Source of the DNA: Acidobacteriota bacterium
Lineage (GTDB): Bacteria; Acidobacteriota; UBA6911; RPQK01; JAJDTT01
Direction: 5' to 3'
NCBI GenBank assembly: GCA_965263035.1
Contig: OZ253580.1
Location: forward strand, 4,768,001 to 4,832,000
Length of the DNA stretch: 64,000 nt
Shown here piece after piece: positions 13,267-45,526 of the stretch. Position numbers and translations under genes: made by a program. The first letter of the stretch is position 1. Each line of letters starts with the position of its first letter. Under the pieces are notes generated by a model, which was not told the origin of the DNA, ran no database searches, and was given only the letters and a program-made list of their open reading frames with translations.

Positions 13267-13279
13267 GACGAGGGTTCCG

Positions 13280-15001: not shown

Positions 15002-15093
15002 AGGGCCGGGTCACGGACGCACGGGACGTCTGTCGAGAACGGGAGTCGGCAGTATACTGGGACGAAAGGGGCGATAGCCGGACGAGTCGAATC

Positions 15094-18127: not shown

Positions 18128-19090
18128 TCAGGGGCTCGTTTCGGATCCACCCGGAGCGGAAGTGTTCACAAAGGCCTCGTCAGACCACTGGACGTTGCCG
18201 CCCTTGTCGACGATTCCTATGGCGATGGTGGAGAGGCGGAATGGACTGTCCTCTTCAGGTACCTCCAGGCACATCTCCAGGATCGTGGGCTCCTGGAAGT
18301 CCCAGGGGAAGGACGCGGTCTTTTCTCCCGTGATCTCCCGGCTGGATGGGTTGCCGGTGGGTGTCCCCTCCAGATCGAAGGCTCGGAAATGGAGTTGAGT
18401 GCCGGCAGGGGCGCTCTGTTCCGGATCGGCCGTCACCGAGGCAAGACCGAGATCCCTGCCGGCTCCGAAGACGCCGGTCAGTACTTGGCAGTCGCCATTT
18501 CCCAACCATTGCTCCGGAGCTTGTCCGGCAACCGAGAAGACCTCCTCGATCTCGCCATCCACCCGATCCTCCACCAGATAACGCCCCTGAACCTGCAGCG
18601 AGTCGGCCGAGCAGGGAGACGGGACGAACACCGAGACGGCTCCCACCACGAGTTCCCCAGAGTCGGTCGTCAAGGTCAGGATTCGGGCACCACCCATGGG
18701 CAGGGTCGTGCGGAGCAGATTGCCTTCAACCGGCTCGCCGTCGAAGAGCACGTTTGGAGCTTCGGTGCTTCCTCGATGGAAGAGCAGCGCCACGTCGCAG
18801 GACTGCGGATTCGGGTCCTGGTGCGTGAGGACAATTTCGGCGTGGGCGTTGCTCCCTCCCAAGGGGCCCATGAAGACGTGGGGAAGCACGGCCGCAGTGG
18901 CGCAAGGTTCGCCGTCCCGGAGGGAAAGACAGTAGCCGGGCTCGACCGCGCGGGCATCCTCGTCGCTGGAGGCCGTCAACGGAGAAGCGGCCATCGCCGG
19001 AAGCAGGACCACGGTGAAGCTCCAGGCCACCGCCGCATAGAGGGCACGCAGCAAGCTGATTCCTAACGGTATTGATTTCGACATTCCCAA
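18128..19090 (-). CDS. Secreted protein consisting only of the Cys-rich domain found at the C-terminus of the two LRR proteins
   Basis: Signal peptide, then YCLSLRDGEPCATAAVLPHVFMGPLG...KGGNVQWSDEA, collinear with the ends of 28373..30898 and 31018..33543. Confidence 0.85.
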   Translation of the reverse strand: MGMSKSIPLGISLLRALYAAVAWSFTVVLLPAMAASPLTASSDEDARAVEPGYCLSLRDGEPCATAAVLPHVFMGPLGGSNAHAEIVLTHQDPNPQSCDVALLFHRGSTEAPNVLFDGEPVEGNLLRTTLPMGGARILTLTTDSGELVVGAVSVFVPSPCSADSLQVQGRYLVEDRVDGEIEEVFSVAGQAPEQWLGNGDCQVLTGVFGAGRDLGLASVTADPEQSAPAGTQLHFRAFDLEGTPTGNPSSREITGEKTASFPWDFQEPTILEMCLEVPEEDSPFRLSTIAIGIVDKGGNVQWSDEAFVNTSAPGGSETSP

Positions 19091-28372: not shown

Positions 28373-30898
28373 TCAAGGACTGGAGTCGGAAACAGCCGAA
28401 GAATCATTCGAAGAATCAAGACGGGTAAACGCTTCGTCACTCCATTGCACGTTCCCGCCCTTTTGCACGATCCCAATGGCAATGGTGGAGAGCTCGAAGT
28501 CGCTGTTTTCTTCCGGTACGTCCAGGCACATCTCCAGGATGGTGGGTTCCTGGAAGTTCCAGGGAAAAGACGCCGCCTGTTCTCCCGTGATCTCCAAGCT
28601 GCCGGGTGATTCCGCCGTCGGATTCCCCTTCAGATCGAAGGAGCGGAAATAGAGTCGAGTGCCGGCCGGGGCGCCGCGTTCCGGCTCGGCGGTCACCGAG
28701 GCGAAACCAAGATCCCTTCCGGCGCCGAAGACGCCGGTGATGTCCTGGCAGTCCCCATCCCCCAGCCACTCACGCGGGGTCTGGCCCGAGACGGAAAATA
28801 CCTCCTGAATATCTCCGTTTGCCTCTTCCTCCACCAGGTACCGCCCTTGAACCCGCAGCGAGTCGACCGTGCAGGGCGAGCGGACGAACACGGAAACGGC
28901 TCCAACCACCAACTCCTCCGAGTCCGCCGTCAAGGTCAGGATTCGGGCTCCACCTCTGGGAACGGTAGCCTCGTACAGGTTCCCTTCAATAGGTTGTCCG
29001 TCGAACAGAATCTCCGGAGCTTCGAAGGTTCCCCGGTGAAAGAGCAGCGCCATTTCGCAGGATTGGGGATCAGGGTCCCGGTTGGTGATCAGGATTTCAG
29101 CTTCGGCGGTGTTCACCCCGAGAGGGCCCATGAAGACATGGGGCAGAACGGCTGAGGTAGCACAGGGATCGCCGTCCCACAGGGAGAGGCAGTACGGAGG
29201 GGGATAGCGCTCTTGATCGATGTCACTGGGAGGCCGCGACGATCTCACGTCGGCGACCGCTGCCGGAGATGAACCGTCGCTGTTCGAGGCCCGTAACTCG
29301 ATCGACTTGTACGCGACCTCCGTGGGGAGACCCGTCAAGGTCCACTCGATGGTCACTCCCTTGCCCGGTCTCAACCAGGTCTTGGGGATCTCCGTGCTGT
29401 CGACCAAGATCTCGAAATCGAATCCCCGAAGGCGGTACCGGTAAACGGCGGTGGGGTCGCCGGGATCGTCCCAGGTCACCTTGATCCGGTCCGGCCCGAC
29501 CCAGCGTGCGCCCAGGTTCAACACGTACAGGTCGGGCAGACGACTCAGCTCCGGAGGTACAGGTCCCGTCAATCGGTTTCCCCGAAAGCTGAACTGCCAC
29601 AGGGTGGACAGTTGCCCCAACTCGGCCGGAAAGGGACCGCTCAACCGGTTGTGCTGGAGATGCAAGAACAACAGCTCCGACAGTTGACCCAGTACAGGCG
29701 GGATGGGCCCCGTCAGCCGGTTGTGGTCGAGGTGTAAGGTGCCCAGCCGGAACAATTGGCCCAGCTCGTTCGGGATGGAGTCCGTCAGCCGGTTGTGGTC
29801 CAGGCGCAACCCTATGAGTCGGGACAGTTGGCCCAGTTCGAGCGGAATCGGACCCGTCAGGACATTGTGTTCGAGGCGCAACCATTCCAACCGGGAAAGC
29901 CGGGCCAACTCGGCCGGGATGGGCCCCGTCAGGCGGTTGTGATGGAGCCGCAGCCAATCCAGCCGGGACAGTCGGGCCAACTCGAGCGGAATCGGGCCGG
30001 TCAACTGGTTTTCACCGAGCAACAGCCATCGCAAGCGGGACAGTTCGGCGAGCTGGGGTGGGATGGGACCCGTCAGCCGGTTGCCGCCGAGCACCAGCCA
30101 TTGAAGTTGGGACAGTTGGGCGAGTTCGTTGGGTATCGGACCCGTCAGGTGGCTGTCTGGTAGGTACAATGACCGTAGTTGGGACAGTTGGCCCAGTTCC
30201 GCCGGTATCGGACCCGCCAGTTGGTTCTGGCCCAGGCTCAGGTGTTGCAAATGGGACAGTTGAGCCAGTTCTTTCGGTATCGGACCGGTCAACTGGTTGT
30301 CGCGTAGTGAAAACACCCTCAACTGGGACAATTGGACCAGTTCCTTTGGAATCGGACCCGTCAGATGGTTTTCTCCGAGTGACAACTGTTCCAATCTCTC
30401 CAGTTGGGCCAGTTCGACCGGGATTGGCCCGTTCAGTTGATTTCCGGTGAGTCCCAACGATTGCAGTCGGGTCATTTCGCCGATTTGTCGTGGAATCGGA
30501 CCCGTCAACTGGTTGTAGTAAAGGTGCAACTCCTGCAATTGGGTCAGATTTGCCAGTTCTGCTGGAATCTGGCCGGTCAACTGGGTTTCTCTGAGTTTCA
30601 AGGCCGACACTCGACTTGGCGATCCGGAGATGGTGATTCCTTGCCAGTCGGAGATTGCCAAATCGGCATCCCAGTTCAGGGAGCCGGTTCCGGCCAACTC
30701 TTCGCGCAGCCCCAACAGGACGGTACAGTCTGCGACCAAGCCGCGGTTCTTGTCCGGATCGGGTACGGCCGTGCCATCATCGCAGGCCAGCAGACGAGCA
30801 TTGCCCGTCGTGAGAAGGAGGACGAATGTGAGGCTCCACAACGAGGTGGCCCCGATGGAAGCCGGGGCTCCGTTTCGCGATAACATCGGTATACCCAT
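28373..30898 (-). CDS. Secreted plant-type LRR protein (cap + 15 x 24-aa LRR + FN3-like + Cys-rich C-terminal domain)
   Basis: NxLTGPIPxELxxLxxLxxLxL repeats counted in the translation. Confidence 0.92.
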   Translation of the reverse strand: MGIPMLSRNGAPASIGATSLWSLTFVLLLTTGNARLLACDDGTAVPDPDKNRGLVADCTVLLGLREELAGTGSLNWDADLAISDWQGITISGSPSRVSALKLRETQLTGQIPAELANLTQLQELHLYYNQLTGPIPRQIGEMTRLQSLGLTGNQLNGPIPVELAQLERLEQLSLGENHLTGPIPKELVQLSQLRVFSLRDNQLTGPIPKELAQLSHLQHLSLGQNQLAGPIPAELGQLSQLRSLYLPDSHLTGPIPNELAQLSQLQWLVLGGNRLTGPIPPQLAELSRLRWLLLGENQLTGPIPLELARLSRLDWLRLHHNRLTGPIPAELARLSRLEWLRLEHNVLTGPIPLELGQLSRLIGLRLDHNRLTDSIPNELGQLFRLGTLHLDHNRLTGPIPPVLGQLSELLFLHLQHNRLSGPFPAELGQLSTLWQFSFRGNRLTGPVPPELSRLPDLYVLNLGARWVGPDRIKVTWDDPGDPTAVYRYRLRGFDFEILVDSTEIPKTWLRPGKGVTIEWTLTGLPTEVAYKSIELRASNSDGSSPAAVADVRSSRPPSDIDQERYPPPYCLSLWDGDPCATSAVLPHVFMGPLGVNTAEAEILITNRDPDPQSCEMALLFHRGTFEAPEILFDGQPIEGNLYEATVPRGGARILTLTADSEELVVGAVSVFVRSPCTVDSLRVQGRYLVEEEANGDIQEVFSVSGQTPREWLGDGDCQDITGVFGAGRDLGFASVTAEPERGAPAGTRLYFRSFDLKGNPTAESPGSLEITGEQAASFPWNFQEPTILEMCLDVPEENSDFELSTIAIGIVQKGGNVQWSDEAFTRLDSSNDSSAVSDSSP

Positions 30899-30943
30899 TG
30901 CTCAGGTTACGTTACATTTCCAGCCGCCGGTTTCGCGTCCGCG

Positions 30944-30975
30944 ATGAAGAGTGGGGACAAGAATGTCCCCTCTCC
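30944..30975 (-). repeat. GGAG-foot REP-like hairpin
   Basis: Reverse complement GGAGAGGGGACATTCTTGTCCCCACTCTTCAT. Confidence 0.7.
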
Positions 30976-31017
30976 CAGTTCTTTGCGGACTTGTCATGAC
31001 TGACTCCTGATCCGAGC

Positions 31018-33543
31018 TCAACGTCCGGACTCCGACCACGCCGAGGGATTCTCCGACCCGTACCTGTCCACGACGGCTTCATCACTCCACTGCACATTGC
31101 CTCCCTTCTGGACGATTCCGATGGCGATGGTGGAAATCTGAAATTCGCTGTCCGTTCCCGGAAGCTCCAGGCACATCTCGATGATGGTGGGCTCCCGAAA
31201 GCGCCATGGAAACGAAGCGGTCTGTTCCCCGGTGATCTCCAGGCTCCTGAGCGGGTTATCCAGGGGGTTCCCTTCCAGATCGAAGGAGCGAAAAAGGAGT
31301 CGAGCGCCTTCTGGGGCTTCTCGCTGGGGATCGGTGGTCACGTAAGCGAGACCCAGATCCCGTCCGGCGCCGAAGACTCCGGTCAAGACCTGGCAGTCCC
31401 TGTCTCCCAGCCATTCCTCGGAAGATTGGCCCGAAACGGAAAAGATCTCCTGGATCTCTCCCCCCATCGGGTATTCCACCAGATAGCGTCCCTGAACCTG
31501 CAGCGAGTCGGCCGCACAGGGCGAGCGGACGAAGACCGAGACCGCGCCGACCACCAAGTCCGCCGCATCCGCCGTCAAGGTCAGGATTTGGGCTCCTCCC
31601 GTAGGAACGCTGCCTTGGAAAAGATTCCCTTCAATTGGCTGGTGGTCGAAAAGGATCTCGGGAGCATCGGACGTCCCCCGATGAAAGAGCAATGCTACAT
31701 CGCAGGCCTGTGGATCAAGACCCCGGTGGGTAATGAGTATTTCAGCTTCGGCCGTGTTCTCCCCGAGAGGCCCCATGAAGACGTGGGGAAGAACGGCTGC
31801 GGTGGCACAGGATTCCCCGTCCCACAGGGAGCGACAATAAGGTTCCGCATCCGGCTCCTGGTTCGTGTCGTCGTCCGTGTCGTCGAGAATCTCGCGCGAT
31901 TCCACCGGGGCCCGTGCCTCCCGGCCGGGACCGTCCTTGTTGATCGCCCGCACCGCGATGGTGGTGTAGCCGGCAGCGGCCGGCAGATCCGTCAATGTGG
32001 ATTCGATGGTCAAGCCTTCCCCTGCCGTCAACGCCGTCTCCGGAATCTCCTTCCTGGGGATCCAGTCCCGGAGGGTCAGGGACCAGAGACGGAATTCGTA
32101 GGTGACCGTGGGATCGCCGGGGTCGTCCCAGGTCACCTTTACGCGGCCCGGACCCACCCAGTTCGCCTTCAAGTTCAACACGTACAGGTCGGGCAGATGT
32201 CTCAGCCGTGCGGGAACCGGTCCCGTCAATTGGTTGCCCAGATAGCTGAACTCCTGCAGGCGGGTCAGTCGGCCCAGCTCAGCCGGGAACGGTCCGGTCA
32301 GCCGGTTGTGCTGGAGGTGCAACTGCCAGAGTCTGGTCAGTTGGCCCAGTTCCGGAGGAATCGACCCCGACAGTTGGTTGTTGTGGAGGTGCAACCACTC
32401 CAACCGGGTGAGGCGACCCAGCTCCGGTGGGATCCGTCCCGTCAACAGGTTGTCGGAGAGGTCCAGGTAAGCCAGATTGGTCAATTGGCCGAACTCGGCC
32501 GGGATCGGTCCCGACAACTGGTTGTGGGAGAGATTCAACGAACCGAGACGGGTCAATTGGATCAACTCCACCGGGATCGGTTCCGTCAGCCGGTTGTCGG
32601 AGAGATTCAATCCTCCCAACCGGGCCATCCGGCCCAACTCCTTCGGAATCGCTCCCGTCAACTGATTCGACGACAGATCCATTGAGGACAGATTGGTCAA
32701 CCGCCCCAACTCCTTCGGAATCGGTCCCGACAGACGATTGTCGTGAAGCTCCAGCCAGGTCATCCCCGTCACTTGCCCCAACTCCGGCGGGATTCGTCCC
32801 GTCAGCCGGTTCGAGAAAAGGTGCAACACCAGCAATCGGGACAGTTGGCCCAATTCACCCGGGATCGGTCCCGTGAGCCGGTTCTCACCGAGCCGCATAC
32901 TGTGTAGCCGGGACAGTTGCCCCAACTCTGCCGGGATCGGTCCCGTCAGTTGGTTGTCGGAGAGGTTCAACGCGTTCATCCGCGTGAGTTTCCCCAACTC
33001 GACTGGGATCCCTCCCGTTAGCTGGTTTTCGTAGATCCACAACTGCCCTAGCTGAGACAACTGGCCCAACTCGACTGGGATCTCTCCGGTCAGTCCGTTG
33101 GAGTTGAGCAGTAAACTCGTGAGCCGGGACAGTTGTCCAAGTTCTGCCGGGATCCCTCCCGTCAACTGATGGTCGGAGATATCCAAATACCGCAGATGGG
33201 ACAGTCGGCTCAGTTCCGGCGGGATCCGTCCCCTCAACCGGTTGCCGAAGATCTCAATCCTGGTGACGCGTGCCGGCGCCCCCGTGGCCCTGATTCCTTC
33301 CCAATCGTTAATGGGCAAACCCGCGTTCCAGTTCAGGGATCCAGCCCCGTCCAACTTGTCACGAGCGGCCAGCAGAGCTTTGCAGTCCTCGACCAGGCCG
33401 GGGTTGCTCTTCGGATTCGGCACCGCCCGGCCGTCGTCGCAGGCCTGCACCAGGGGATTTCCGGTCGTTAGAAGAAGAACGAGCGTGAGGATCCATCCCG
33501 CAGTGGAAGGAAACCATCCTCGCCAAGCCGTCGTGTTACTCAT
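31018..33543 (-). CDS. Secreted plant-type LRR protein, paralog with the same architecture (15 LRRs)
   Basis: Same cap (CDDGxAVPxPxxNxGLVxDC), 15 repeats, FN3-like and C-terminal domain; start placed at MSNTTAW. Confidence 0.92.
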   Translation of the reverse strand: MSNTTAWRGWFPSTAGWILTLVLLLTTGNPLVQACDDGRAVPNPKSNPGLVEDCKALLAARDKLDGAGSLNWNAGLPINDWEGIRATGAPARVTRIEIFGNRLRGRIPPELSRLSHLRYLDISDHQLTGGIPAELGQLSRLTSLLLNSNGLTGEIPVELGQLSQLGQLWIYENQLTGGIPVELGKLTRMNALNLSDNQLTGPIPAELGQLSRLHSMRLGENRLTGPIPGELGQLSRLLVLHLFSNRLTGRIPPELGQVTGMTWLELHDNRLSGPIPKELGRLTNLSSMDLSSNQLTGAIPKELGRMARLGGLNLSDNRLTEPIPVELIQLTRLGSLNLSHNQLSGPIPAEFGQLTNLAYLDLSDNLLTGRIPPELGRLTRLEWLHLHNNQLSGSIPPELGQLTRLWQLHLQHNRLTGPFPAELGRLTRLQEFSYLGNQLTGPVPARLRHLPDLYVLNLKANWVGPGRVKVTWDDPGDPTVTYEFRLWSLTLRDWIPRKEIPETALTAGEGLTIESTLTDLPAAAGYTTIAVRAINKDGPGREARAPVESREILDDTDDDTNQEPDAEPYCRSLWDGESCATAAVLPHVFMGPLGENTAEAEILITHRGLDPQACDVALLFHRGTSDAPEILFDHQPIEGNLFQGSVPTGGAQILTLTADAADLVVGAVSVFVRSPCAADSLQVQGRYLVEYPMGGEIQEIFSVSGQSSEEWLGDRDCQVLTGVFGAGRDLGLAYVTTDPQREAPEGARLLFRSFDLEGNPLDNPLRSLEITGEQTASFPWRFREPTIIEMCLELPGTDSEFQISTIAIGIVQKGGNVQWSDEAVVDRYGSENPSAWSESGR

Positions 33544-33694
33544 CTTCTGTCCCTGAAGGCGAGAAATCGGAGAAAAGAGGCTCACGCCCGTCGGTTTGGA
33601 TGAAGATAACGCATGTTCGGTCCGGGCGAAATTCACAGGAGTTCCCCCAAAAAAATGGGGAAAGTCCTGGGAATTCGCTGTTGCCGGGGCAGAG

Positions 33695-33741: not shown

Positions 33742-35658
33742 GTGGTGAAACGCTGGCAACACCGCAACCGTCCCAGGTTCTCCGGACTCGGTTCGTTTTT
33801 CTTCGGGGTGGCCTGTATCGCGCTGTTGTGGTTTGTTTCGTCCACGGGCCGACTCCAGGCGCAATCCTCCGGCGATGAGGCCCTTCCCGAGCCGACGTTG
33901 ATCTCGGTCTTTCCTCCCGGCGGGCAGCAGGGATCCCGGATCGAACTCGAGATCCGGGGGGAAGCGCTGGACGGCGCCTATTCGGTTGTCTTCGGTTCCG
34001 TCGGCTTGGAGGCTCAGGTCGGTGAAGTCGAGAAGCTTGAGGCGCGGGAACCGGCGACGCCGTCTCCCAAGAAGAAATCGTACCCCCTCTTTCGAGTGAC
34101 GGCGCACCTCACCGTGGACTCGTCGGTTCCCGCCGGAACCCATCGGTTTCGCTTGGTTTCTCATCGAGGGGTTTCCAACGCGCTCCATTTCCGGGTCGAC
34201 GAAGACACCGTCACCAGCGAGATCGAAACCCCACATCCATCGGCCCGGCAGGCGCAGGAGATCGACCTCCCTGTCATCGTCAACGGCCGTATCGGCGAGC
34301 ATGGCGAACTGGACGCCTATCGGTTCGACGCGGTTGCCGGTCAGGAGCTGACCTTCGTAATCACCCAGGCCGCACACTTCGAGCCCCGGCTTGCCCTTTA
34401 CCGTCCGACCGGGAGCTGGCTCGATCCCGACCGTCCCACCCGGCTCCTTTTCCGGGAGCAGGTGTCTTCCGACCTGATTCCGGTTCGGCACCGTTTCTCC
34501 TACCGTGTGGCGGAGTCGGGACTCTACCTGTTGGAGGTTGCGTCGCTCTTGGGAAAAGGGGGCCCCGACTGTGGCTATCAGCTTCGGGTTCTGACCGCCG
34601 GCCCGGCTCCGCAGGCAACGTCTGAACCCACGTGGACCGAACGACACTTCACCCGGAAGATCGATGCCGATTGGACCGACCGTCTCCGATCCCGGACCGT
34701 CCTCCAGGAGCAGCCGCATTCCCAAGGCCGCGAGACGGCCACCGGGGCCGGCAGCCTGGCGGTCTCCCCGGATGCTACGCCGTCGGCGACGGATCGAACC
34801 CCCCAGGGTCTGGCCCGGCTGCTGGAGCGGGAGCCCAACGAGCTGCGCGGACAGGCGTTGCCGGCTTCCATAGGGGAGCTCATCGACGGCACTATCGGCG
34901 CCCCGGGCGACCGCGACACCTACACCTTCGAGGGGGAGGCGGGCACCCAACTGATTCTCGAGCTGGCGACGCCGCGGGTGGGGCCGCCCCATTTCAATCC
35001 GCGCGTGGAGCTGTACGAAGACCAGGGTGGTTCGGTGCTGGCCAACGTCCACAAGTATGGAACGATCTACAACGGCGGCGGTATTCCGAGTTCCTTCTTG
35101 AAGACGGTCGAACCCAAGATGGCCTACACGCTGGAGCGAAGCGGCCGGTTCTTTGTGGAGGTTCGCGACGTCACCTCGCGTTACGGCGGCCCGGACTACG
35201 AGTACCGGTTGCTGGTTCGAACCCCGATTCCCCATGTCGGGGCCTTCGACGTGGACCCCGTCGAACGCATCAACCTGGTCCCGGGAATAGCCAGAAAGCT
35301 GAGCATCGTCACTCACCAGGAAGAAGGCTTTGCCGGTGAAGTCCTCTTCGCCTGTTCCAACCTGCCGCCCGGTGTCCAGATCTTCCCGGGTGCCGATGTG
35401 GAGAAGAAGAGTTCCGCATCCGTCAGCAAACAGGAGGAAAGTTTCCTGCCCGGAATACAGAAGACGACCCTGGTCCTTCTGGCCGAACCGGATGCTCCGG
35501 TGACCCGCATGCCCGAGTGGATTCGGATCACCGCCAGACCCGTGGTCGGAGGACGGGTCGGCGCGGACCTGCCCGTCTTGGAAGTTCCGCTGATGGTGGT
35601 CGCACCGGCCGATCCGGAGAGCAACTCCGGGGAAGGGGACTCCCAATCGTCGTCATGA
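33742..35658 (+). CDS. Secreted PPC-domain protein of DUF1549/DUF1501 operons
   Basis: SVFPPGGQQG start, EREPN, GTIGAPGDRDTYTF pre-peptidase C-terminal repeats. Confidence 0.8.
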   Translation: MVKRWQHRNRPRFSGLGSFFFGVACIALLWFVSSTGRLQAQSSGDEALPEPTLISVFPPGGQQGSRIELEIRGEALDGAYSVVFGSVGLEAQVGEVEKLEAREPATPSPKKKSYPLFRVTAHLTVDSSVPAGTHRFRLVSHRGVSNALHFRVDEDTVTSEIETPHPSARQAQEIDLPVIVNGRIGEHGELDAYRFDAVAGQELTFVITQAAHFEPRLALYRPTGSWLDPDRPTRLLFREQVSSDLIPVRHRFSYRVAESGLYLLEVASLLGKGGPDCGYQLRVLTAGPAPQATSEPTWTERHFTRKIDADWTDRLRSRTVLQEQPHSQGRETATGAGSLAVSPDATPSATDRTPQGLARLLEREPNELRGQALPASIGELIDGTIGAPGDRDTYTFEGEAGTQLILELATPRVGPPHFNPRVELYEDQGGSVLANVHKYGTIYNGGGIPSSFLKTVEPKMAYTLERSGRFFVEVRDVTSRYGGPDYEYRLLVRTPIPHVGAFDVDPVERINLVPGIARKLSIVTHQEEGFAGEVLFACSNLPPGVQIFPGADVEKKSSASVSKQEESFLPGIQKTTLVLLAEPDAPVTRMPEWIRITARPVVGGRVGADLPVLEVPLMVVAPADPESNSGEGDSQSSS

Positions 35659-38240
35659 AGGTCCGGGTGTCCGATTGGATCACTTCCCAATGGAATCGAT
35701 GCGGGCGGAGGCCCGGCCCCATTCTCTGCTCGACGGTCATCGTCGTTTCCTCAGTCCTTGTTTGCGCGATGGCCGCCTTCGAGGCGCCGGCGCCGAGCCA
35801 CTCCCCGACACTGCTCGCTCTGAGATTGGTCCCGGAGCAGGCGCACTTGACGGGTCCGGAGGCTGCCCAGCGTTTCGTCGTCATGGGGACGTTCGCCGAT
35901 GGTCTGGAGAGGGATCTGACCTCGGACAGCCGGCTTCGAATTTCCGATCCTGAACTGGCGCGCGTGGGTGACGCCGGCAGGGTCGTCGCCCTGGCGCCGG
36001 GCGAGGTGACTCTCCGGGCCCGGATCGGGGGGCGCGAAGCCCAGTCCCGGATTCGAATCGATCCCGGCGCGGCTCAGAGACCCTTCCGTTTCGACCGCGA
36101 TATCGCCTCCATTCTGACCAAACGGGGCTGCAACGCCAGCGAGTGCCACGGCAGCGTCAAGGGAAAGGGAGGTCTCAAGCTCTCCCTCGACGCTCTCTAT
36201 CCGGAAGAGGACCACGAGTGGATCGTGAAAGGGGGGATCTACCAGGTCCTGGTCATGGAATCGGGCGGTCCGCGGGTGCCGCGCGTGAATCCGGAGCGTC
36301 CGGAGGAGAGCCTGCTGCTGCAGAAGGCCGCCATGCAGGTGATCCACGGCGGCGGTGAGCGCCTGGGCGCCGACTCTGCGGACTACGCCGCCCTTCTGGA
36401 TTGGATCCGGGAAGGGGCCGAATATGGCGACCGAAATGAAGATGGGCGGATAGTCCGGGTGACGGTCTTCCCGCAGGAATCCGTCTTGGACGGCAAGGGT
36501 GTACAGCAGCTTCTGGTGACCGCCTACGGACCCGACGGCCGTGGCGAGGACATCAGTCACCAGGCTCGCTACGTCTCCCAGAACCCCCACGTCGTGACGG
36601 TCGACGAAAACGGCCGGGTCACGGCCGCCGGGACGGGAGAGACCACCATCCTGGTCCGCACCGCCGGTCACGCCCTCAGCGCACGCTTCGGAGTCGTGGA
36701 TGCGTCGGCCCCAGTCGACTTCAGAATCGAGCCCCGCAATCTCATCGACGAGCACGTCTTCGCCAAACTGCGAAAGTTCCAGATCCGTCCTTCTGCGCTT
36801 TCCAGCGATTCGGAATTCCTGCGCCGCGTCTGTATGGACATCACCGGCACCCTGCCGCCGCCGGATCGCGTCCGGGAATTCCTGGCCGACCGCGACCCGC
36901 GGAAACGGGACAAGCTCATCGAGACTCTCCTGGACTCTCCCCAGTACGTGGACTATTGGAGTTTCCTGTTCGGGGACCTGTTCCGGGTGACCTACACCTC
37001 CGTGGGCTCGCTCAAGGAGGTCAAGGCATACGGCGACTGGGTCCGCAACGGCATCCTCCAGAACAAGCCCTACGACCGCATGGCGCGGGAACGTATCGCC
37101 GCTCAGGGGTACGCGGCTCCCACCCGTCACTTTTTTCGTTATACCGAACTGGTCGTGCCCCACGAGATCATGGCCGAGCAGGTCCGCGTCTTCATGGGGC
37201 GCCGGCTGGATTGCGCCCAGTGCCACAACCATCCCTTCGAGACCTGGAGCCAGGACCAGTTCTGGGGAATGACCGCCTTTTTCGGCAACGTCACGCAACT
37301 TCTGGATTCCCAATTGGTTTTCGACAATCCGGAGGGTGGGCGATCCTACGACTTGAAACGGGAGGGCATCAAAACCGTCCATCCACGCCGGAAGGAAGAA
37401 GTCCGGGCCGGGTTCCTGGACGGGTCATTCCCGACAGGGGAACAGGAGCGCGATCCGCGCCTGGCTCTGGCCGACTGGATCATCGCCCAGCCCGCCTTCG
37501 CCCGGACCGTCGTGAACCGGGTCTGGGGCTATTACTTCGGCCGGGGAATCGTGGACCCTGTGGACGATTTCAAGGTATCCAACCCGCCGACCCATCCCGA
37601 GCTGCTGTCGGCGCTGGCGGAAGACTTCGTGGAGCACGGCTACGACCTGAAGCACCTGATGAGGCGGATCGTCCGGTCGTGGACCTACCAGACTTCGGGA
37701 GTCCCCAACCGGACCAACCAGGAAGATGGAATCAACTATGCGCGGGCTTTGGCCCGGCCGTTGCAGGCCACCGTCCTGCTGGACGCCATCTCCCACGCCA
37801 CCGGGGTCCCGGAGGAGTTCCCGGTGCACCCCAAGACCGTGCGCACCGGCGCGGCTCGTCCGGGGGCCCGCGCCATCGACCTGATTCCCGAACTGTTTCC
37901 CTGCCATTTCCTCAACGTCTACGGACGGTCCATGCGCAAGTCGCTTCCGGAAAAGCCGTCCCTGACCTTGGCCCAGGCCCTGCACATGTGGGCGGGATCG
38001 ACTTATACGACCAAAATCACCCAGGAGGGCGGACGTCTCGACCGGGCGCTGCGGGAAGGCCTATCCGATGCCCGGATCATCGAAGACTTCTACCTGGCAG
38101 CGCTTTCGCGCTATCCGACCGAACGGGAAAGATCCGACCTGGAAGCGTATGTCCGAGAGGGATCCTCCCCGCGGCCGGAGCAACTGGCGAACCTGATGTG
38201 GGCCCTAATCAGCTCGCGGGAGTTTGCATACAATCATTGA
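35655..38240 (+). CDS. DUF1549/DUF1553 domain protein with Ig-like repeats
   Basis: GCNASECHG, EFLRRV, CAQCHNHP, PTHPELL, EFAYNH; ATGA overlap start. Confidence 0.88.
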   Translation: MKVRVSDWITSQWNRCGRRPGPILCSTVIVVSSVLVCAMAAFEAPAPSHSPTLLALRLVPEQAHLTGPEAAQRFVVMGTFADGLERDLTSDSRLRISDPELARVGDAGRVVALAPGEVTLRARIGGREAQSRIRIDPGAAQRPFRFDRDIASILTKRGCNASECHGSVKGKGGLKLSLDALYPEEDHEWIVKGGIYQVLVMESGGPRVPRVNPERPEESLLLQKAAMQVIHGGGERLGADSADYAALLDWIREGAEYGDRNEDGRIVRVTVFPQESVLDGKGVQQLLVTAYGPDGRGEDISHQARYVSQNPHVVTVDENGRVTAAGTGETTILVRTAGHALSARFGVVDASAPVDFRIEPRNLIDEHVFAKLRKFQIRPSALSSDSEFLRRVCMDITGTLPPPDRVREFLADRDPRKRDKLIETLLDSPQYVDYWSFLFGDLFRVTYTSVGSLKEVKAYGDWVRNGILQNKPYDRMARERIAAQGYAAPTRHFFRYTELVVPHEIMAEQVRVFMGRRLDCAQCHNHPFETWSQDQFWGMTAFFGNVTQLLDSQLVFDNPEGGRSYDLKREGIKTVHPRRKEEVRAGFLDGSFPTGEQERDPRLALADWIIAQPAFARTVVNRVWGYYFGRGIVDPVDDFKVSNPPTHPELLSALAEDFVEHGYDLKHLMRRIVRSWTYQTSGVPNRTNQEDGINYARALARPLQATVLLDAISHATGVPEEFPVHPKTVRTGAARPGARAIDLIPELFPCHFLNVYGRSMRKSLPEKPSLTLAQALHMWAGSTYTTKITQEGGRLDRALREGLSDARIIEDFYLAALSRYPTERERSDLEAYVREGSSPRPEQLANLMWALISSREFAYNH

Positions 38241-38246
38241 GGAACG

Positions 38247-38270
38247 GGAGCGGCGGCTTTCTTGCCGCCG
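38247..38270 (+). repeat. GGAG-foot REP-like hairpin
   Basis: GGAG-CGGCGGCTTTCTTGCCGCCG; same core at 48225..48246. Confidence 0.65.
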
Positions 38271-38349
38271 GACTCCAATGCAACAATGGGCCAAATAAGG
38301 AACGGACGACCGCAACGTCGCCCCCCCAACGAGTAATGGAGAAGGAAAG

Positions 38350-39696
38350 TTGAAAGAATACCGGTGTTTCCAGTGCAGGCGGACCAAACTCGGGCGCCGC
38401 GACTTCCTCCGCGTAGGTTCCCTGAGCTTTCTCGGGATGAACGCCGGCGACCTCCTCAGTCTGGAGCGTCTCCAAGCGGCGGCCGGCGCCAAACCTCCCG
38501 CGGGCCAGGCTCAGGCCTGCATTCTCCTCTTCCTGGAGGGCGGCCCCAGCCAGATGGATACCTGGGATCCCAAGGGGAACACCAACTTCGGCTCCATCGC
38601 CACCAACGTCGACGGCATCCGGATCTCCGAACTCCTGCCCCGGACGGCCGGGCACCTGGACAAGCTCTCGCTGATCCGGTCCATGCGGACGCAGGAGACC
38701 AACCACCCCCAGGGGACCATCGAGTCCCTCACCGGCCATCGGCCCAGCCCCACCATGAAGTTCCCGGGGTTCGGCTCGATCGTGGCCAAGGAAATGGGTC
38801 CCCGCAACGGCATGCCGCCGTTCACCACGGTCCCCATGCCTTGGGAGAACGACTTCTACAACTACGAGGAGGCCTTCAAGGGCTCGTACATCGGCGCCGA
38901 GTACGACGCCATGGTCCTGCCGGACCCCAGCGGAGAGGAATATGTCGTACCCGACCTCCGGTTGCCCAAATCGGTCTCCGCCGCGGCCATCGAAGACCGG
39001 AAGACCCTGCTCAGCATCGTGGACCGGCATTACCGGGCCACCCAGGAGGTGGCCGAGTTCGGCAAGATGGACACTTACCGCGAGCAGGCACTGGGCATGA
39101 TCCTCTCGTCTCACGTCCAGAAGGCGTTCGACCTCTCCAGCGAATCAGAGAAGACCAGGGACGCGTACGGACGCCACCGCTTCGGCCAGAGCGTTCTGAT
39201 GGCCCGCCGCCTGGTGGAGGCCGGGTGCCGCTTCGTCACGGCGGCCGGTTACAAGCACGGGCAGTGGGACACGCACGGGAGCAACGACAAGCGGCTCAAG
39301 GAAGACCTGACCCCTCCCCTGGACCAGGCGCTCACCGCGCTGTTGGAAGATTTGGAACAGAGGGGTCTGTGGGAATCGACGGTGGTGCTGGTCATGGGTG
39401 AGTTCGGGCGGACTCCCCACATCAATCCCGGCCTGGGTCGGGATCACTGGCCCCACTGCTGGTCGTTGGCCCTGGGAGGCGGCGGTATCCAAGGGGGGCA
39501 GGTCATCGGCGTCAGCGACGACCGGGCCGCCTTCGTTGCGGAACGCCCGATCTCCATCGGCGACCTCTACGCCACCATCTACAAGGCGCTGGGTATCGAT
39601 TGGACCAAGACCTACATGGCTCCCGTTGGACGTCCCGTCTACATCGCCAACGGTTTCGACGACACCATGGGGCAGCCCATCCCGGAATTGATCTGA
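38350..39696 (+). CDS. DUF1501 domain protein
   Basis: RRDFL Tat-like motif, GGPSQMDTWDPK, WDTH, GEFGRTP, GRDHWP. Confidence 0.92.
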   Translation: MKEYRCFQCRRTKLGRRDFLRVGSLSFLGMNAGDLLSLERLQAAAGAKPPAGQAQACILLFLEGGPSQMDTWDPKGNTNFGSIATNVDGIRISELLPRTAGHLDKLSLIRSMRTQETNHPQGTIESLTGHRPSPTMKFPGFGSIVAKEMGPRNGMPPFTTVPMPWENDFYNYEEAFKGSYIGAEYDAMVLPDPSGEEYVVPDLRLPKSVSAAAIEDRKTLLSIVDRHYRATQEVAEFGKMDTYREQALGMILSSHVQKAFDLSSESEKTRDAYGRHRFGQSVLMARRLVEAGCRFVTAAGYKHGQWDTHGSNDKRLKEDLTPPLDQALTALLEDLEQRGLWESTVVLVMGEFGRTPHINPGLGRDHWPHCWSLALGGGGIQGGQVIGVSDDRAAFVAERPISIGDLYATIYKALGIDWTKTYMAPVGRPVYIANGFDDTMGQPIPELI

Positions 39697-44041: not shown

Positions 44042-45511
44042 TTAACTTCGCTGGAGTAGCCGCCGTGAGAGGTCGTTGTAACCCCCCACGTCGGTGAGTC
44101 GCCGGTCCCGTCCCTGGAAGAAGTAGGTGAGTCCTTCGTGGTCCAGGCCCAGCAGCGAGAGGATGGTGGCGTGCAGGTCGTGGACGTGAACCTTGTCCTC
44201 GGTCGCCTTCATTCCCAGGTCGTCGGTGGCGCCGATGGCCTTCCCTCCCTGGATTCCGGCTCCCGTCATCCAGCATGAGAATCCGTACGGGTGATGATCC
44301 CGGCCGAGTTTTCCCTGCACGAACGGCGTCCGGCCGAATTCCCCGGAACAGAACACCAGGGTGCTCTCCAGCAGCCCCCGCTGCTTGAGATCCTGCAGCA
44401 GGCCGGCGATGGGCTGGTCCACCTTTCTGGAGTTGTCCCAATGGTTCCGGGAACATTGCTCGTGGCCGTCCCAGTCGGTGCTGATCAGGTGTACGAAGCG
44501 GACGCCGCGTTCCAACATGCGCCGGGTCAGCAGGCACATCCGCCCGAACTTCCGGCTCTTTTCCTGGTCCAGTCCGTACAGCCGGCGGATGTGTTCCGGC
44601 TCCCGGGAGAGGTCGACGAGTTCCGGCGCGGCGGTCTGCATTCGGAAAGCCAGCTCATAGTTGGAGATGCGAGCCGCCAGACTCGTGTCGTCGGAGCGGG
44701 CCTGGTAGTGCCGCCGGTTCGACTTCCGGATCCAGTCCAGGAGGTTCCGCTGATCCGCCGGGGTCATCTCCTGGGGAGGAGTCAGGTCCTTGAGAGGGGC
44801 GCCCTCGGAGCGCAGCAGGGTGCCCTGGTAGATGGCGGGCAGGAACCCGGAGCCGAAGTGGTTCCGGTTGGTCCGGCCCCACAAGTTGCCGTCGGTCATC
44901 ACCATGTAGGCGGGAAGATTGTCGTTCTCGCTCCCCAGGCCGTACAGGATCCAGGACCCGACGCTGGGATGTCCCGTGAGGATGGAACCGGTGCAGAGGT
45001 AGTTGGTCGCCGGACCGTGGACGAAGGAATCATGGTAGCAGGAGCGGACCACTGCCAAGTCGTCGGCGTGCGTGGCCACCTTCCGCATGAGATCCGAAAT
45101 CTCCAGCCCCGACTCCCCGTACCTGCGAAAGGGGATGTCCGAACCCATCAGCTTGGCTTCGCCGGCGGCGATATTGGCGAAATTGAGATCGCCCGAGGCG
45201 AAGCTCTGGGGAAGGTTCTGGCCGTCGTAGCGCGTCAGAGCCGGCTTGGGATCCAGGGTGTCCACATGGCTGGCGCCTCCCTGGAGATAGATGAAGACCA
45301 CGTTGCGGCCACTTGCGCTCTGGTGAGGAGGCTTGGGTGCGAGCGGGTGCAGAATCGATTCCCGGGTCCCCTTGGCGGAGGCCGTCCGGAAGAAGGATTC
45401 CCGCTCCAGCAGATGGATCAGCGGCAGGGAGCCGAAGCCCATTCCCCACTTGCTCAGGAACTCGCGTCGTGAGCCGGCCGGTTCATGGCGATGGCAGTGG
45501 AAGGGATTCAT
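44042..45511 (-). CDS. DUF1501 domain protein
   Basis: SRREFL, GGASHVDTLDPKP, WDGH, GEFGRTP, GRDHHP. Confidence 0.92.
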   Translation of the reverse strand: MNPFHCHRHEPAGSRREFLSKWGMGFGSLPLIHLLERESFFRTASAKGTRESILHPLAPKPPHQSASGRNVVFIYLQGGASHVDTLDPKPALTRYDGQNLPQSFASGDLNFANIAAGEAKLMGSDIPFRRYGESGLEISDLMRKVATHADDLAVVRSCYHDSFVHGPATNYLCTGSILTGHPSVGSWILYGLGSENDNLPAYMVMTDGNLWGRTNRNHFGSGFLPAIYQGTLLRSEGAPLKDLTPPQEMTPADQRNLLDWIRKSNRRHYQARSDDTSLAARISNYELAFRMQTAAPELVDLSREPEHIRRLYGLDQEKSRKFGRMCLLTRRMLERGVRFVHLISTDWDGHEQCSRNHWDNSRKVDQPIAGLLQDLKQRGLLESTLVFCSGEFGRTPFVQGKLGRDHHPYGFSCWMTGAGIQGGKAIGATDDLGMKATEDKVHVHDLHATILSLLGLDHEGLTYFFQGRDRRLTDVGGYNDLSRRLLQRS

Positions 45512-45526
45512 GGAATAAACCGCTTC

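What the first reader, a model, noticed from the sequence alone, without database searches (positions are those of the whole stretch)
28373..33543. Receptor-like family: variable 15-LRR solenoid, FN3-like linker and constant domain
Two tandem secreted proteins share one plan: Cys cap, 15 plant-type 24-aa LRRs, an FN3-like domain (KVTWDDPGDPT) and a highly similar C-terminal domain. Scaffold residues (NxLTGPIPxELG) and the 72-bp DNA units are conserved, but the concave-face xxLxLxx positions differ in almost every repeat and between paralogs. Established: such eukaryote-like LRR proteins are typical of sponge and other host symbionts. Inference: a variable/constant binding repertoire, possibly diversified by repeat exchange and displayed through the constant domain, which also exists alone at 18128.
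Basis: partly seen in the sequence, partly recalled or inferred. Interest (0 to 1): 0.7.

Follow-up and report, generated by a model that had tools for sequence, protein, structure and literature searches.

The report
LRR proteins sharing an unknown domain
Two neighbouring genes encode secreted leucine-rich-repeat binding proteins that share an undescribed tail domain with four other genes of the genome; their binding faces differ between gene copies but are kept between species, so this is a stable family of binders, not a fast-diversifying one.

Summary
Genes A (28373-30898, -) and B (31018-33543, -) each encode a signal peptide, a two-Cys cap, exactly 15 plant-type 24-aa LRRs, an FN3-fold linker and a ~254-aa C-terminal domain. 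That domain also stands alone at 18128-19090.

The C-terminal domain matches no Pfam or NCBIfam model. It is predicted as two beta-sandwiches, the first resembling TM1070/ASRT. It occurs six times in this genome. Elsewhere it is fused to other LRR classes, trypsin-like proteases and BNR propellers. In the 301 phylum genomes sampled (probably Acidobacteriota), it was found only in the window's own order.

The diversification reading is mostly not supported:
- A and B are old paralogs (dS about 0.85-1.2), and their 72-bp units are only 44-78% identical.
- Between orthologs the concave residues are under purifying selection (omega 0-0.5; 0 of 75 changed in B of two species). They vary no more than convex-side residues.
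- Constant domains cluster by orthogroup, not by genome.
- Contigs from three other DNA runs show A's LRR almost unchanged.

One part holds: whole 24-aa units are gained and lost in register between close relatives (A orthogroup, 13-17 units).

The function of the shared tail is inferred, not shown. A common attachment or glycan-binding module is most likely.

The parts
28373..30898 (-). Gene A (P0001), 841 aa: signal peptide, Cys cap, 15 LRRs, FN3-like linker, constant domain, 19-aa tail
   Evidence: ORF, translation, Pfam LRR_1/LRR_8
30611..30898 (-). A residues 1-96: hydrophobic N-terminus and N-cap with two conserved Cys (AC-DDG ... DC), then LNW...W.GI...RV leading into LRR1
   Evidence: The signal peptide is inferred from the sequence. 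No Pfam LRRNT hit.
29531..30610 (-). A residues 97-456: 15 x 24-aa plant-specific-type LRR units (15 x 72 bp)
29195..29530 (-). A residues 457-568: capping strand LYVLNL, FN3-fold domain (KVTWDDPGDPT...) and a short acidic/Pro linker
   Evidence: AF2 pLDDT 80.2; Foldseek hits are FN3 domains
28433..29194 (-). A residues 569-822: constant domain (YCLSLWDG ... NVQWSDE), six Cys, predicted as two beta-sandwiches
   Evidence: no Pfam or NCBIfam match
31018..33543 (-). Gene B (P0002), 841 aa, same plan as A. The start is taken at the ATG at 33543; an upstream GTG at 33636 is also open.
32188..33267 (-). B residues 93-452: 15 x 24-aa LRR units
31840..32187 (-). B residues 453-568: capping strand, FN3-like domain and an acidic linker 4 aa longer than in A
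31078..31839 (-). B residues 569-822: constant domain
18128..19090 (-). Gene E: the constant domain alone, 320 aa, with its own N-terminal hydrophobic signal and no LRR or FN3
   Evidence: AF2 model pLDDT 89.8

Best explanation
A and B are two old tandem paralogs in a family of secreted, modular binding proteins. The genome is probably from the Acidobacteriota.

The parts of each protein:
- The head is a 15-unit plant-specific-type LRR solenoid. Its concave face is specific to each paralog but conserved among the orthologs of that paralog in other species. Each paralog therefore most likely recognises its own fixed ligand.
- An FN3-fold domain follows the last LRR strand directly. It acts as a cap and spacer, as the Ig-like inter-repeat domain does in internalins.
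- The C-terminal ~254-aa module consists of two beta-sandwiches, the first TM1070/ASRT-like. The same module is used on other heads: other LRR classes, trypsin-like proteases and sialidase-like BNR propellers. It also occurs alone.

The module most likely acts as a common attachment or targeting module, probably binding a glycan of the cell's own envelope or matrix, or of a host surface. It would bring the different heads to one place.

The family evolves by duplication, gene loss and in-register gain or loss of whole LRR units through unequal recombination. It does not evolve by programmed or rapid diversification of the concave residues.

Shown here: the architecture, the paralog set, the selection pattern, the unit indels, the domain's fusions and its predicted fold.
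Inferred: secretion, ligand binding by the LRR, and the attachment or glycan-binding role of the module.
For: Architecture.

Paralogs: six loci carry the constant domain in the 6.2-Mb genome. They are A, B, C (12 LRRs), D (12 LRRs, frameshifted), E (alone) and F (domain N-terminal to a BNR propeller).

Age of A and B: dS is 1.18 in the LRRs and 0.85 in the constant domain.

Selection between orthologs (NG86):
- B of G000 against G007: 0 of 75 concave residues differ, against 14 of 135 convex variable residues (Fisher p = 0.0025).
- B of G000 against G005: omega is 0.27 concave, 0.42 convex variable, 0.08 scaffold.
- G type, G007 against G002: 0.27, 0.40 and 0.07.
- A of G000 against G007: 0.52, 0.91 and 0.11.
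- Constant domain: omega 0.11-0.32.

Variation within orthogroups, as mean pairwise amino-acid difference, concave against convex variable:
- B: 0.097 against 0.179 (p = 0.014).
- G: 0.237 against 0.294 (not significant).
- A: 0.101 against 0.096 (not significant).

The constant-domain tree groups A, B, C/D, G and F by orthogroup with 97-100% support.

Unit indels:
- A has 15 units here and 16 in G007, through one hybrid 4/5 unit and two extra units between units 12 and 13.
- Seven A-type proteins have 13, 14, 15, 16, 16, 16 and 17 units. All gaps are multiples of 24 aa.
- Database cluster members 98.9-100% identical over their aligned residues differ by clean gaps of 24, 48, 72 or 96 aa.

The module:
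- Six Cys are visible in the sequence.
- AF2 gives pLDDT 89.8 and pTM 0.87.
- The N-terminal half matches 1nc7 (TM1070) at Z 10.5, rmsd 3.3, with 107 of 116 residues aligned. It matches 2ii7 (ASRT) at Z 6.6.
- The ASRT superfamily is predicted to bind sugars (PMC2739507; abstract and part 1 of section 4 read).
- Fusions to LRR_8/LRR_5, Trypsin, BNR_2 and Sortilin-type BNR are seen.
- In F the domain sits in front of the propeller, a position that lectin-like modules take in some sialidases (recalled).
Against: - No binding, localisation or secretion experiment exists. No signal-peptide predictor was run.
- The ASRT-like match is by fold only. There is no Pfam hit even at E <= 10 in any of 26 members. 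The conserved Trp that defines ASRAH at strand 1 (PMC2739507) is not evident by eye.
- The C-terminal half matches only generic beta-sandwiches, at Z about 7, which is the level common for models without a clear relative.
- The omega values are pairwise averages on three or four ortholog pairs. Single positively selected sites cannot be excluded, and A's concave omega (0.52) rests on 9 non-synonymous and 4 synonymous changes.
- Some database length variants may be assembly collapses of repeats.
- The read evidence is from contigs, which drop minority variants.
Confidence: 0.55

Rival explanations
1. The family is a variable/constant binding repertoire whose concave faces are actively diversified by exchange or conversion of repeat units, and which is displayed on the cell through the constant domain.
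For: - Concave positions are the most variable within and between paralogs.
- Whole units are gained and lost in register, creating hybrid units. The A orthogroup ranges from 13 to 17 units, and near-identical database alleles differ by 1-4 units.
- The genome holds 4 LRR-FN3-constant genes, and about 11 LRR ORFs in all.
- Copy number differs between species of the genus: 4 of the 9 genus genomes searched, G000 included, have LRR forms.
Against: - Concave sites are under purifying selection between orthologs: omega 0-0.52, and 0 of 75 changed in B between G000 and G007.
- No two units exceed 78% DNA identity, and A and B have dS about 1.
- Constant domains show no concerted evolution.
- Contigs of three DNA runs from other studies carry A's LRR with 0-3 differences in about 1750 nt.
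- None of the 36 window ORFs scanned has a reverse transcriptase or recombinase.
Confidence: 0.12
2. The constant domain is an oligomerisation platform, since TM1070 and ASRT are tetramers. It would make the LRR heads multivalent. The stand-alone copy E would join or cap such assemblies.
For: - The N-terminal half has the TM1070 fold (Z 10.5).
- A figure legend in PMC2739507 describes TM1070 as a tetramer (section 4, part 1, read).
- A stand-alone copy exists.
Against: There is no test: the complex predictor was not available. Fold likeness does not carry over the quaternary structure. This reading is compatible with the best explanation rather than exclusive of it.
Confidence: 0.12
3. The constant domain is a secretion or sorting signal, in the manner of C-terminal domains recognised by a dedicated export or anchoring machine.
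For: - It is C-terminal in nearly all fused forms, on many unrelated heads.
- It is restricted to one order among the phylum genomes sampled: 11 of 301 genomes, all in that order.
Against: - In F and its orthologs in all 8 other genus genomes the domain is N-terminal to the BNR propeller.
- It exists alone with its own signal peptide.
- At about 254 aa with three likely disulfides it is much larger than known C-terminal sorting domains (recalled).
- No dedicated machinery lies next to the genes.
Confidence: 0.07
4. The constant domain is the active part, an enzyme or effector, and the LRR, protease or propeller heads only target it.
For: One Glu and one Gly are invariant, and several Cys, Pro and Gln are nearly invariant, across 26 diverse members. 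Purifying selection is strong (omega 0.11-0.32).
Against: - No structural match to an enzyme active site was found. All matches are binding-type or structural beta-sandwiches.
- Fusion partners include enzymes themselves (trypsin, BNR propeller), which is the pattern of an accessory module.
Confidence: 0.08

Closest known systems
Listeria internalins (N-cap, LRR, Ig-like inter-repeat domain, C-terminal anchoring modules)
   Same: The order of parts is the same: a capped LRR solenoid, a beta-sandwich domain fused directly to the last LRR strand, then a C-terminal module that differs from the binding part and is shared within a paralog family. It works like a surface adhesin family with paralog-specific ligands.
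   Different: - The units are 24-aa plant-specific type, not the 22-aa internalin type (the 22-aa figure is recalled).
- NCBIfam internalin models score 12-66 bits against cut-offs of 1050-1600.
- The host phylum is probably Gram-negative Acidobacteriota.
- No LPXTG or GW modules are present.
- The C-terminal module is an undescribed domain.
Plant-specific-class LRR ectodomains (PGIP, LRR receptor-like proteins and kinases)
   Same: The 24-residue unit LxxLxLxxNxL(T/S)GxIPxxLGxLxx, an N-terminal cap with LNW...W.G motifs, and ligand-contacting xxLxLxx positions.
   Different: - No transmembrane helix or kinase.
- The plant Cys-pair pattern of LRRNT_2 is not matched (no Pfam hit).
- It is followed by FN3 and a bacterial module.
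- In plant resistance genes the concave sites often show omega above 1 (recalled). Here they do not.
Xanthomonas type III effectors XopL, XopAC and XopAE (plant-type LRR)
   Same: These are bacterial proteins with the same LRR class. They give the best NCBIfam partial matches (E 1e-14 to 1e-41).
   Different: - Scores of 51-141 bits lie far below the cut-offs of 450-600, so A and B are not members.
- A and B have Sec-type N-termini and Cys-rich extracellular-type domains.
- No Fic or E3 ligase-like domain is present.
ASRT/TM1070 (ASRAH superfamily; De Souza, Iyer and Aravind 2009, PMC2739507)
   Same: The first half of the constant domain superposes on TM1070 (Z 10.5, rmsd 3.3, 107 of 116 residues). 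Extracellular ASRAH domains are likewise accessory modules on secreted enzymes and are predicted to bind sugars.
   Different: No sequence-level relation was detected. The defining Trp is not evident. Here the domain is always paired with a second, different beta-sandwich (no internal duplication).
Lamprey variable lymphocyte receptors (variable LRR cassettes on an invariant stalk)
   Same: A variable LRR module sits on a constant C-terminal part, and unit number varies.
   Different: VLR diversity is made somatically from banks of donor cassettes (recalled). Here no near-identical donor units exist (at most 78% identity), the concave faces are conserved between species, and the variation is germline, between strains and species.
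Eukaryote-like repeat proteins of sponge and other host symbionts
   Same: Secreted LRR and FN3 proteins in expanded paralog families. The general enrichment of such proteins in symbionts is reported in the papers listed (listing and abstract starts seen).
   Different: The habitat of this genome was not established here. The shared C-terminal module was not found described: no Pfam or NCBIfam model matches it, and no literature search was aimed at it.

Membership tests
Plant-specific (PS) class leucine-rich repeats | Unit of 24 residues with consensus LxxLxLxxNxL(T/S)GxIPxxLGxLxx | tested here: met
   30 of 30 units in A and B are 24 aa. L11 and P16 are present in 30 of 30 units, N9 in 27, G13 in 28 and I15 in 26.
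Plant-specific (PS) class leucine-rich repeats | Match to curated LRR profiles above threshold | tested here: met
   LRR_1 scores 134.9 and 139.6 bits (cut-off 20.6). LRR_8 scores 107.5 and 99.1 bits (cut-off 27).
Fibronectin type III domain | Seven-strand beta-sandwich superposable on FN3 domains | tested here: met
   The AF2 model has pLDDT 80.2 and six strands assigned. The Foldseek rows are almost all FN3 domains, with prob 1.00 and TM 0.4-0.65, but the best E is 1.1e-3.
Fibronectin type III domain | Sequence match to Pfam fn3 above the gathering score | tested here: not met
   No fn3 hit at E <= 0.1 in A or B. One relative reaches E 0.028. The profile against PDB gives neogenin FN3 at E 0.057. 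Hence 'FN3-like'.
ASRAH/ASRT superfamily (first half of the constant domain) | Eight-stranded beta-sandwich of the TM1070 type | tested here: met
   1nc7_A at Z 10.5, rmsd 3.3, 107 aligned of 116. It is the only match at Z >= 8 among 48,161 chains.
ASRAH/ASRT superfamily (first half of the constant domain) | Sequence relation (DUF1362 profile) and the conserved Trp at strand 1 and Asn at the end of strand 2 (PMC2739507) | tested here: inconclusive
   No Pfam hit at E <= 10 in any of 26 members. A conserved T-N ends an early strand (consensus). No conserved Trp is seen. No profile-profile comparison with ASRT sequences could be made.
Internalins (NCBIfam class 1 internalin models) | Score above the curated cut-off | tested here: not met
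   12.5-65.7 bits against cut-offs of 1050-1600.
XopL / XopAC / XopAE type III effectors | Score above the curated cut-off | tested here: not met
   51-141 bits against cut-offs of 450-600. Only the LRR part aligns.
Programmed LRR diversification (VLR-like cassette copying or DGR-like mutagenesis) | Near-identical donor units or template repeats, and a reverse transcriptase or similar enzyme nearby | tested here: not met
   The highest unit-to-unit DNA identity is 78%. None of the 36 window ORFs scanned has a reverse-transcriptase domain. The rest of the genome was not scanned for one.
Programmed LRR diversification (VLR-like cassette copying or DGR-like mutagenesis) | Excess change at ligand-contact positions between close relatives | tested here: not met
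   Concave omega is 0.00-0.52 and never above that of the convex variable sites. Within-orthogroup variability at concave sites is at or below that at convex sites.

The most novel reading that the evidence does not exclude
The ~254-aa tail is a new, order-restricted, two-sandwich glycan-binding or anchoring module, with an ASRT-like first half. It defines a 'one anchor, many heads' system. The same module would tether LRR binders of two classes, trypsin-like proteases and sialidase-like propellers to one envelope or host glycan, with a free copy (E) acting as competitor or regulator. Length polymorphism of the LRR head (13-17 units among near-identical alleles) would be the fast-evolving variable that retunes binding between strains.
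Probability: 0.25. Interest if true: 0.55.

Novelty: new variant of a known kind. Interest (0 to 1): 0.36.

Why it matters
Eukaryote-like LRR proteins are often cited as host-interaction factors of uncultured bacteria, but their variability is usually read from paralogs alone. Here orthologs from related genomes allow the test. The concave faces are paralog-specific and conserved, so each copy probably has its own stable ligand. The quick changes are whole-unit gains and losses.

The shared tail is a compact, confidently folding domain with no Pfam or NCBIfam model. It has 82 clusters at 50% identity among 1.84 billion representative proteins. It marks a set of secreted binders and enzymes in one bacterial order. 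Finding what it binds would show where all of these proteins act.

Tried and rejected
- Complex prediction for a homodimer of the constant domain was not available.
- Foldseek on the whole constant-domain model gave only generic Ig-like matches (pilins, SdrE, Bap, lectins) with TM at or below 0.25. I rejected these as uninformative for a two-domain model. VIA-align was used instead.
- A profile of the constant domain against PDB sequences gave nothing below E 0.23.
- hhalign of the first against the second half of the constant domain gave probability 0.2%, so there is no detectable internal duplication.
- Pfam at E <= 10 on 26 members gave no family for the domain.
- The ESM Atlas gave only unnamed Acidobacteriota clusters, plus one DUF5719 row at 0.95 with recognition below the usual level. 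This is a lead only and was not followed.
- The listing of cluster members on 8 relatives returned no names.
- The search of earlier findings by sequence and by words found nothing.
- Read laying: the many 'joints' have sides of only 21-27 letters in metagenome contigs. They most likely come from other LRR genes or organisms, so I rejected them as evidence of shuffling.
- RNA-library contigs cover parts of A and B. DNA carry-over cannot be excluded, so this is only a weak hint of expression.
- The A-versus-B dN/dS at concave sites (0.54) was rejected as uninformative because dS is saturated at 2.0.
- The promoter and terminator scan found no more sites than shuffles give.
- The paper search for plant-specific LRRs in bacteria returned nothing on point.
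Full report
**What is there**

On the minus strand lie two ORFs of 841 aa each. A is at 28373-30898 and B at 31018-33543 (from the ATG). They are 119 bp apart.

Each protein has these parts, in order:
- A hydrophobic N-terminus.
- A cap with two conserved cysteines (AC-D-D/E-G ... DC).
- Exactly 15 in-register units of 24 residues, LxxLxLxxNxLTGxIPxxLGxLxx (A residues 97-456, B residues 93-452).
- A 16th truncated strand, LYVLNL.
- The KVTWDDPGDP region.
- About 254 further residues, from YC(L/R)SLWDG to NVQWSDE.
- A 19-aa tail.

Pfam finds only LRR families, far above threshold. Neither Pfam nor NCBIfam finds anything in the last 254 residues or in the stand-alone copy at 18128-19090. The NCBIfam hits to XopAC, XopAE, XopL and the internalins cover only the repeats and lie far below their cut-offs.

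**The variable and constant pattern**

Over the 30 units of A and B, entropy is 2.7-3.5 bits at positions 2, 3, 5, 7 and 8, and 2.6 bits at position 17. At the scaffold positions it is at or below about 1 bit. Positional partners in A and B agree at only 13 of 75 concave residues.

By domain, A and B are 55% identical in the LRRs, 48% in the FN3-like part and 73% in the tail domain. The description is correct.

The DNA units are not close copies of one another. Unit-to-unit identity is 44-78%, with a mean of about 60%. Only units 14 and 15 pair up by position between A and B. Tandem Repeats Finder sees the 72-bp period at 72-81% matches.

**Age of the pair**

Nei-Gojobori dS between A and B is 1.18 in the LRRs and 0.85 in the tail. 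This is an old duplication. The near-random concave identity (17%) needs no special mechanism.

**The family in this genome**

The window lies in a single 6.2-Mb contig. The tail domain occurs at six loci:
- A and B.
- C (12 LRRs, 6.02 Mb).
- D (12 LRRs, 6.17 Mb, frameshifted inside the tail).
- E (the tail alone).
- F (0.90 Mb). Here the domain comes first and a BNR/Asp-box propeller follows. Homologs of F carry PF13088.

A motif scan finds about 11 LRR ORFs in the genome, four of them with the FN3 motif.

**Orthologs and the selection test**

Among the other 8 genomes of the genus, all have the F type. LRR forms were found in three: G002, G005 and G007. G007 has B and A in the same tandem next to the same neighbouring gene. 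G005 has B. G007 and G002 have a further 14-unit type, here called G.

NG86 omega between orthologs:

| Ortholog pair | Concave | Convex variable | Scaffold |
|---|---|---|---|
| B, G000 vs G007 | 0.00 | 0.72 | 0.19 |
| B, G000 vs G005 | 0.27 | 0.42 | 0.08 |
| G type, G007 vs G002 | 0.27 | 0.40 | 0.07 |
| A, G000 vs G007 | 0.52 | 0.91 | 0.11 |

- In the first pair, 0 of 75 concave residues differ against 14 of 135 convex variable residues (Fisher p = 0.0025).
- The A pair rests on few changes.
- The tail domain has omega 0.11-0.32.

With database proteins added, concave sites vary less than or as much as convex variable sites within orthogroups. In B the values are 0.097 against 0.179 (p = 0.014). 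In G they are 0.237 against 0.294 (not significant). In A they are 0.101 against 0.096 (not significant).

The concave faces are therefore paralog-specific and conserved. That is the signature of fixed, distinct specificities, not of ongoing diversification.

**No concerted evolution**

A tree of 20 tail-domain rows groups A, B, C/D, G and F by orthogroup across genomes, with 97-100% ultrafast bootstrap support. A and B appear as sisters at 86/90. D was entered as its two frames separately.

**What does change quickly**

- A has 15 units here and 16 in G007. One unit is missing at 4/5, leaving a hybrid unit, and two extra units lie between units 12 and 13.
- Seven A-type proteins have 13, 14, 15, 16, 16, 16 and 17 units. 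Every gap is a multiple of 24 aa.
- P0044 is identical to A in units 1-11 and carries two more units.
- In other members of the family, cluster mates 98.9-100% identical over their aligned residues differ by clean gaps of 24, 48, 72 or 96 aa.
- The B and G orthogroups are mostly constant, at 15 and 14 units.

This is unequal recombination between units. It is the one part of 'repeat exchange' that the data support. Some database variants may be assembly collapses. The 15-unit form of A is carried by contigs of three further DNA runs.

**Population data**

The stretch is held by 20 public runs from 11 studies. All four runs that I laid are contigs.
- A's LRR array has 0, 3 and 3 other letters in pieces of about 1540-1750 nt in three DNA runs.
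- Differences cluster instead in A's tail domain (28613-29027) and in B's FN3/linker region (31753-32000).
- Contigs of an RNA library cover parts of both genes. This is only a weak hint of expression.
- The many joints have very short sides, and I disregarded them.

**The FN3-like linker**

A nine-sequence alignment gave an AF2 model with pLDDT 80.2. Nearly all of the Foldseek rows shown are FN3 domains (integrin beta-4, DCC, Dscam, fibronectin), with prob 1.00 and TM 0.4-0.65. No row reaches E <= 0.001. The sequence profile only brushes neogenin FN3, at E 0.057. 'FN3-like' is the right wording.

**The tail domain**

- It has 82 relatives at E <= 0.001 among 1.84 billion cluster representatives. 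The 90%-identity collection gave 40 relatives near its length and 85 longer ones.
- It sits at the C-terminus of plant-type LRR-FN3 proteins, of long LRR_8/LRR_5 proteins, of trypsin-like proteases and of Sortilin-type BNR proteins. It sits at the N-terminus of BNR_2 proteins.
- One relative is labelled Acidobacteriota by its source, and the Atlas clusters are Acidobacteriota.
- In a sample of 301 genomes of the phylum it was found in 11. All 11 are in the window's order (11 of 20 there, G000 included), against 0 of 281 outside.
- AF2 on 26 sequences gives pLDDT 89.8 and pTM 0.87, all beta.
- The first half (model residues 24-153) matches Thermotoga TM1070 at Z 10.5 (rmsd 3.3, 107 of 116 residues). 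This is the only match at Z >= 8 among 48,161 chains. Its relative ASRT matches at Z 6.6.
- The second half matches many jelly-roll or GOLD-like sandwiches at Z about 7, which is not diagnostic.
- The two halves are not detectably related to each other.
- De Souza, Iyer and Aravind argue that the ASRT superfamily binds small molecules, most probably sugars, and that its extracellular versions ride on secreted enzymes (PMC2739507; abstract and part 1 of section 4 read).
- The domain has six cysteines, which suits an extracytoplasmic protein.

**Mechanism proposed**

The proposal is heads that recognise and a tail that places.
- The LRR heads bind paralog-specific ligands.
- The FN3 domain caps the solenoid and spaces it from the tail.
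- The tail is a common attachment or targeting module, most likely glycan-binding. It is shared with proteases and sialidase-like propellers.
- The layout parallels the internalins, without family membership.

Only the anatomy, the distribution, the selection pattern and the fold are shown. Secretion, binding and the tail's role are inferred.

They are listed separately with their evidence. Oligomerisation could not be tested because the complex predictor was unavailable.

**Context**

The neighbours are ordinary secreted or periplasmic-type genes: a cytochrome-c-containing 879-aa protein, a 3-keto-disaccharide hydrolase, PSCyt/PSD1 with DUF1501 pairs, five FG-GAP/UnbV proteins and a TPR protein. 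The 36 ORFs scanned include no secretion system, reverse transcriptase or recombinase.

**Verdict**

This is a real and well-described feature. It is a new variant of a known kind: bacterial eukaryote-like LRR surface proteins, here with an undescribed shared tail domain. The diversification hypothesis is largely refuted by its own test, apart from unit-number polymorphism. Interest is moderate.

Noticed in passing
G000:C1:6168103-6170518 (outside the window; loci L006 and L007): Paralog D (12 LRRs, FN3, tail domain) is split by a frameshift inside the tail domain. Truncated tail-only ORFs also exist in G007 (L042, 256 aa) and G002 (L040, 284 aa). G005 keeps only a 30-aa remnant at the site syntenic with E. 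The family shows ongoing gene decay and turnover.
   Followed up: partly
G000:C1:6151263-6190435 (outside the window): An LRR 'island': five long LRR ORFs lie within 40 kb, D among them. Three share a different C-terminal module (…ITGRT..G.ELFSL.F.MPE…). One shares a third module (…FTG.ALEMDADNRIFTTLP) with an ORF at 3.69 Mb. So there are at least three 'variable LRR plus shared tail' sets in one genome.
   Followed up: no
window 28613-29027 (A tail domain), and the equivalent columns in the B and G orthogroups: Strain and species differences in the 'constant' domain cluster in the same surface stretch of the first sandwich (…HRGTFEAPEILFDGQPIEGNLYEAT…) and in one loop of the second sandwich. 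This holds in all three orthogroups and in contigs of two runs. It may be a contact surface of the tail.
   Followed up: partly
window 31078-33267, against L038: Between G000 and G007, gene B has dS 0.058 in the LRRs but 0.169 in the tail domain. Gene A shows uneven dS as well. This mosaic suggests recombination between strains within the genes.
   Followed up: no
window 30782-30790 (A) and 33439-33447 (B), the residues around the first Cys: The first conserved Cys follows the hydrophobic segment directly (…LLA-C, …VQA-C). In B the context fits the PROSITE lipobox pattern as I recall it; in A, C and G it does not. The Cys could be a lipidation site or half of a cap disulfide. This was not resolved.
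   Followed up: partly
C-terminal tails of A, B, C and G, and of distant relatives (alignment A1): The tails end in a loose motif PSAWS(D/E)SG(P/R). Distant members end in …IFADGFESGD(V/T)SAWS…. This is a recurrent terminal motif of unknown meaning.
   Followed up: no
window 8214-17097 and 52884-54611: Five paralogous FG-GAP/ASPIC-UnbV proteins, four of them in a row with a TPR protein between them. This is another expanded family of secreted repeat proteins in the same window.
   Followed up: no
window 388-3395: A restriction-modification pair: a BsuBI/PstI-type endonuclease and an Eco57I/N6-type methylase.
   Followed up: no
window 35517-39696 and 44042-48148: Two PSCyt/PSD1 (DUF1549/DUF1553) plus DUF1501 gene pairs, as are common in Planctomycetota-like and some Acidobacteriota genomes.
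   Followed up: no
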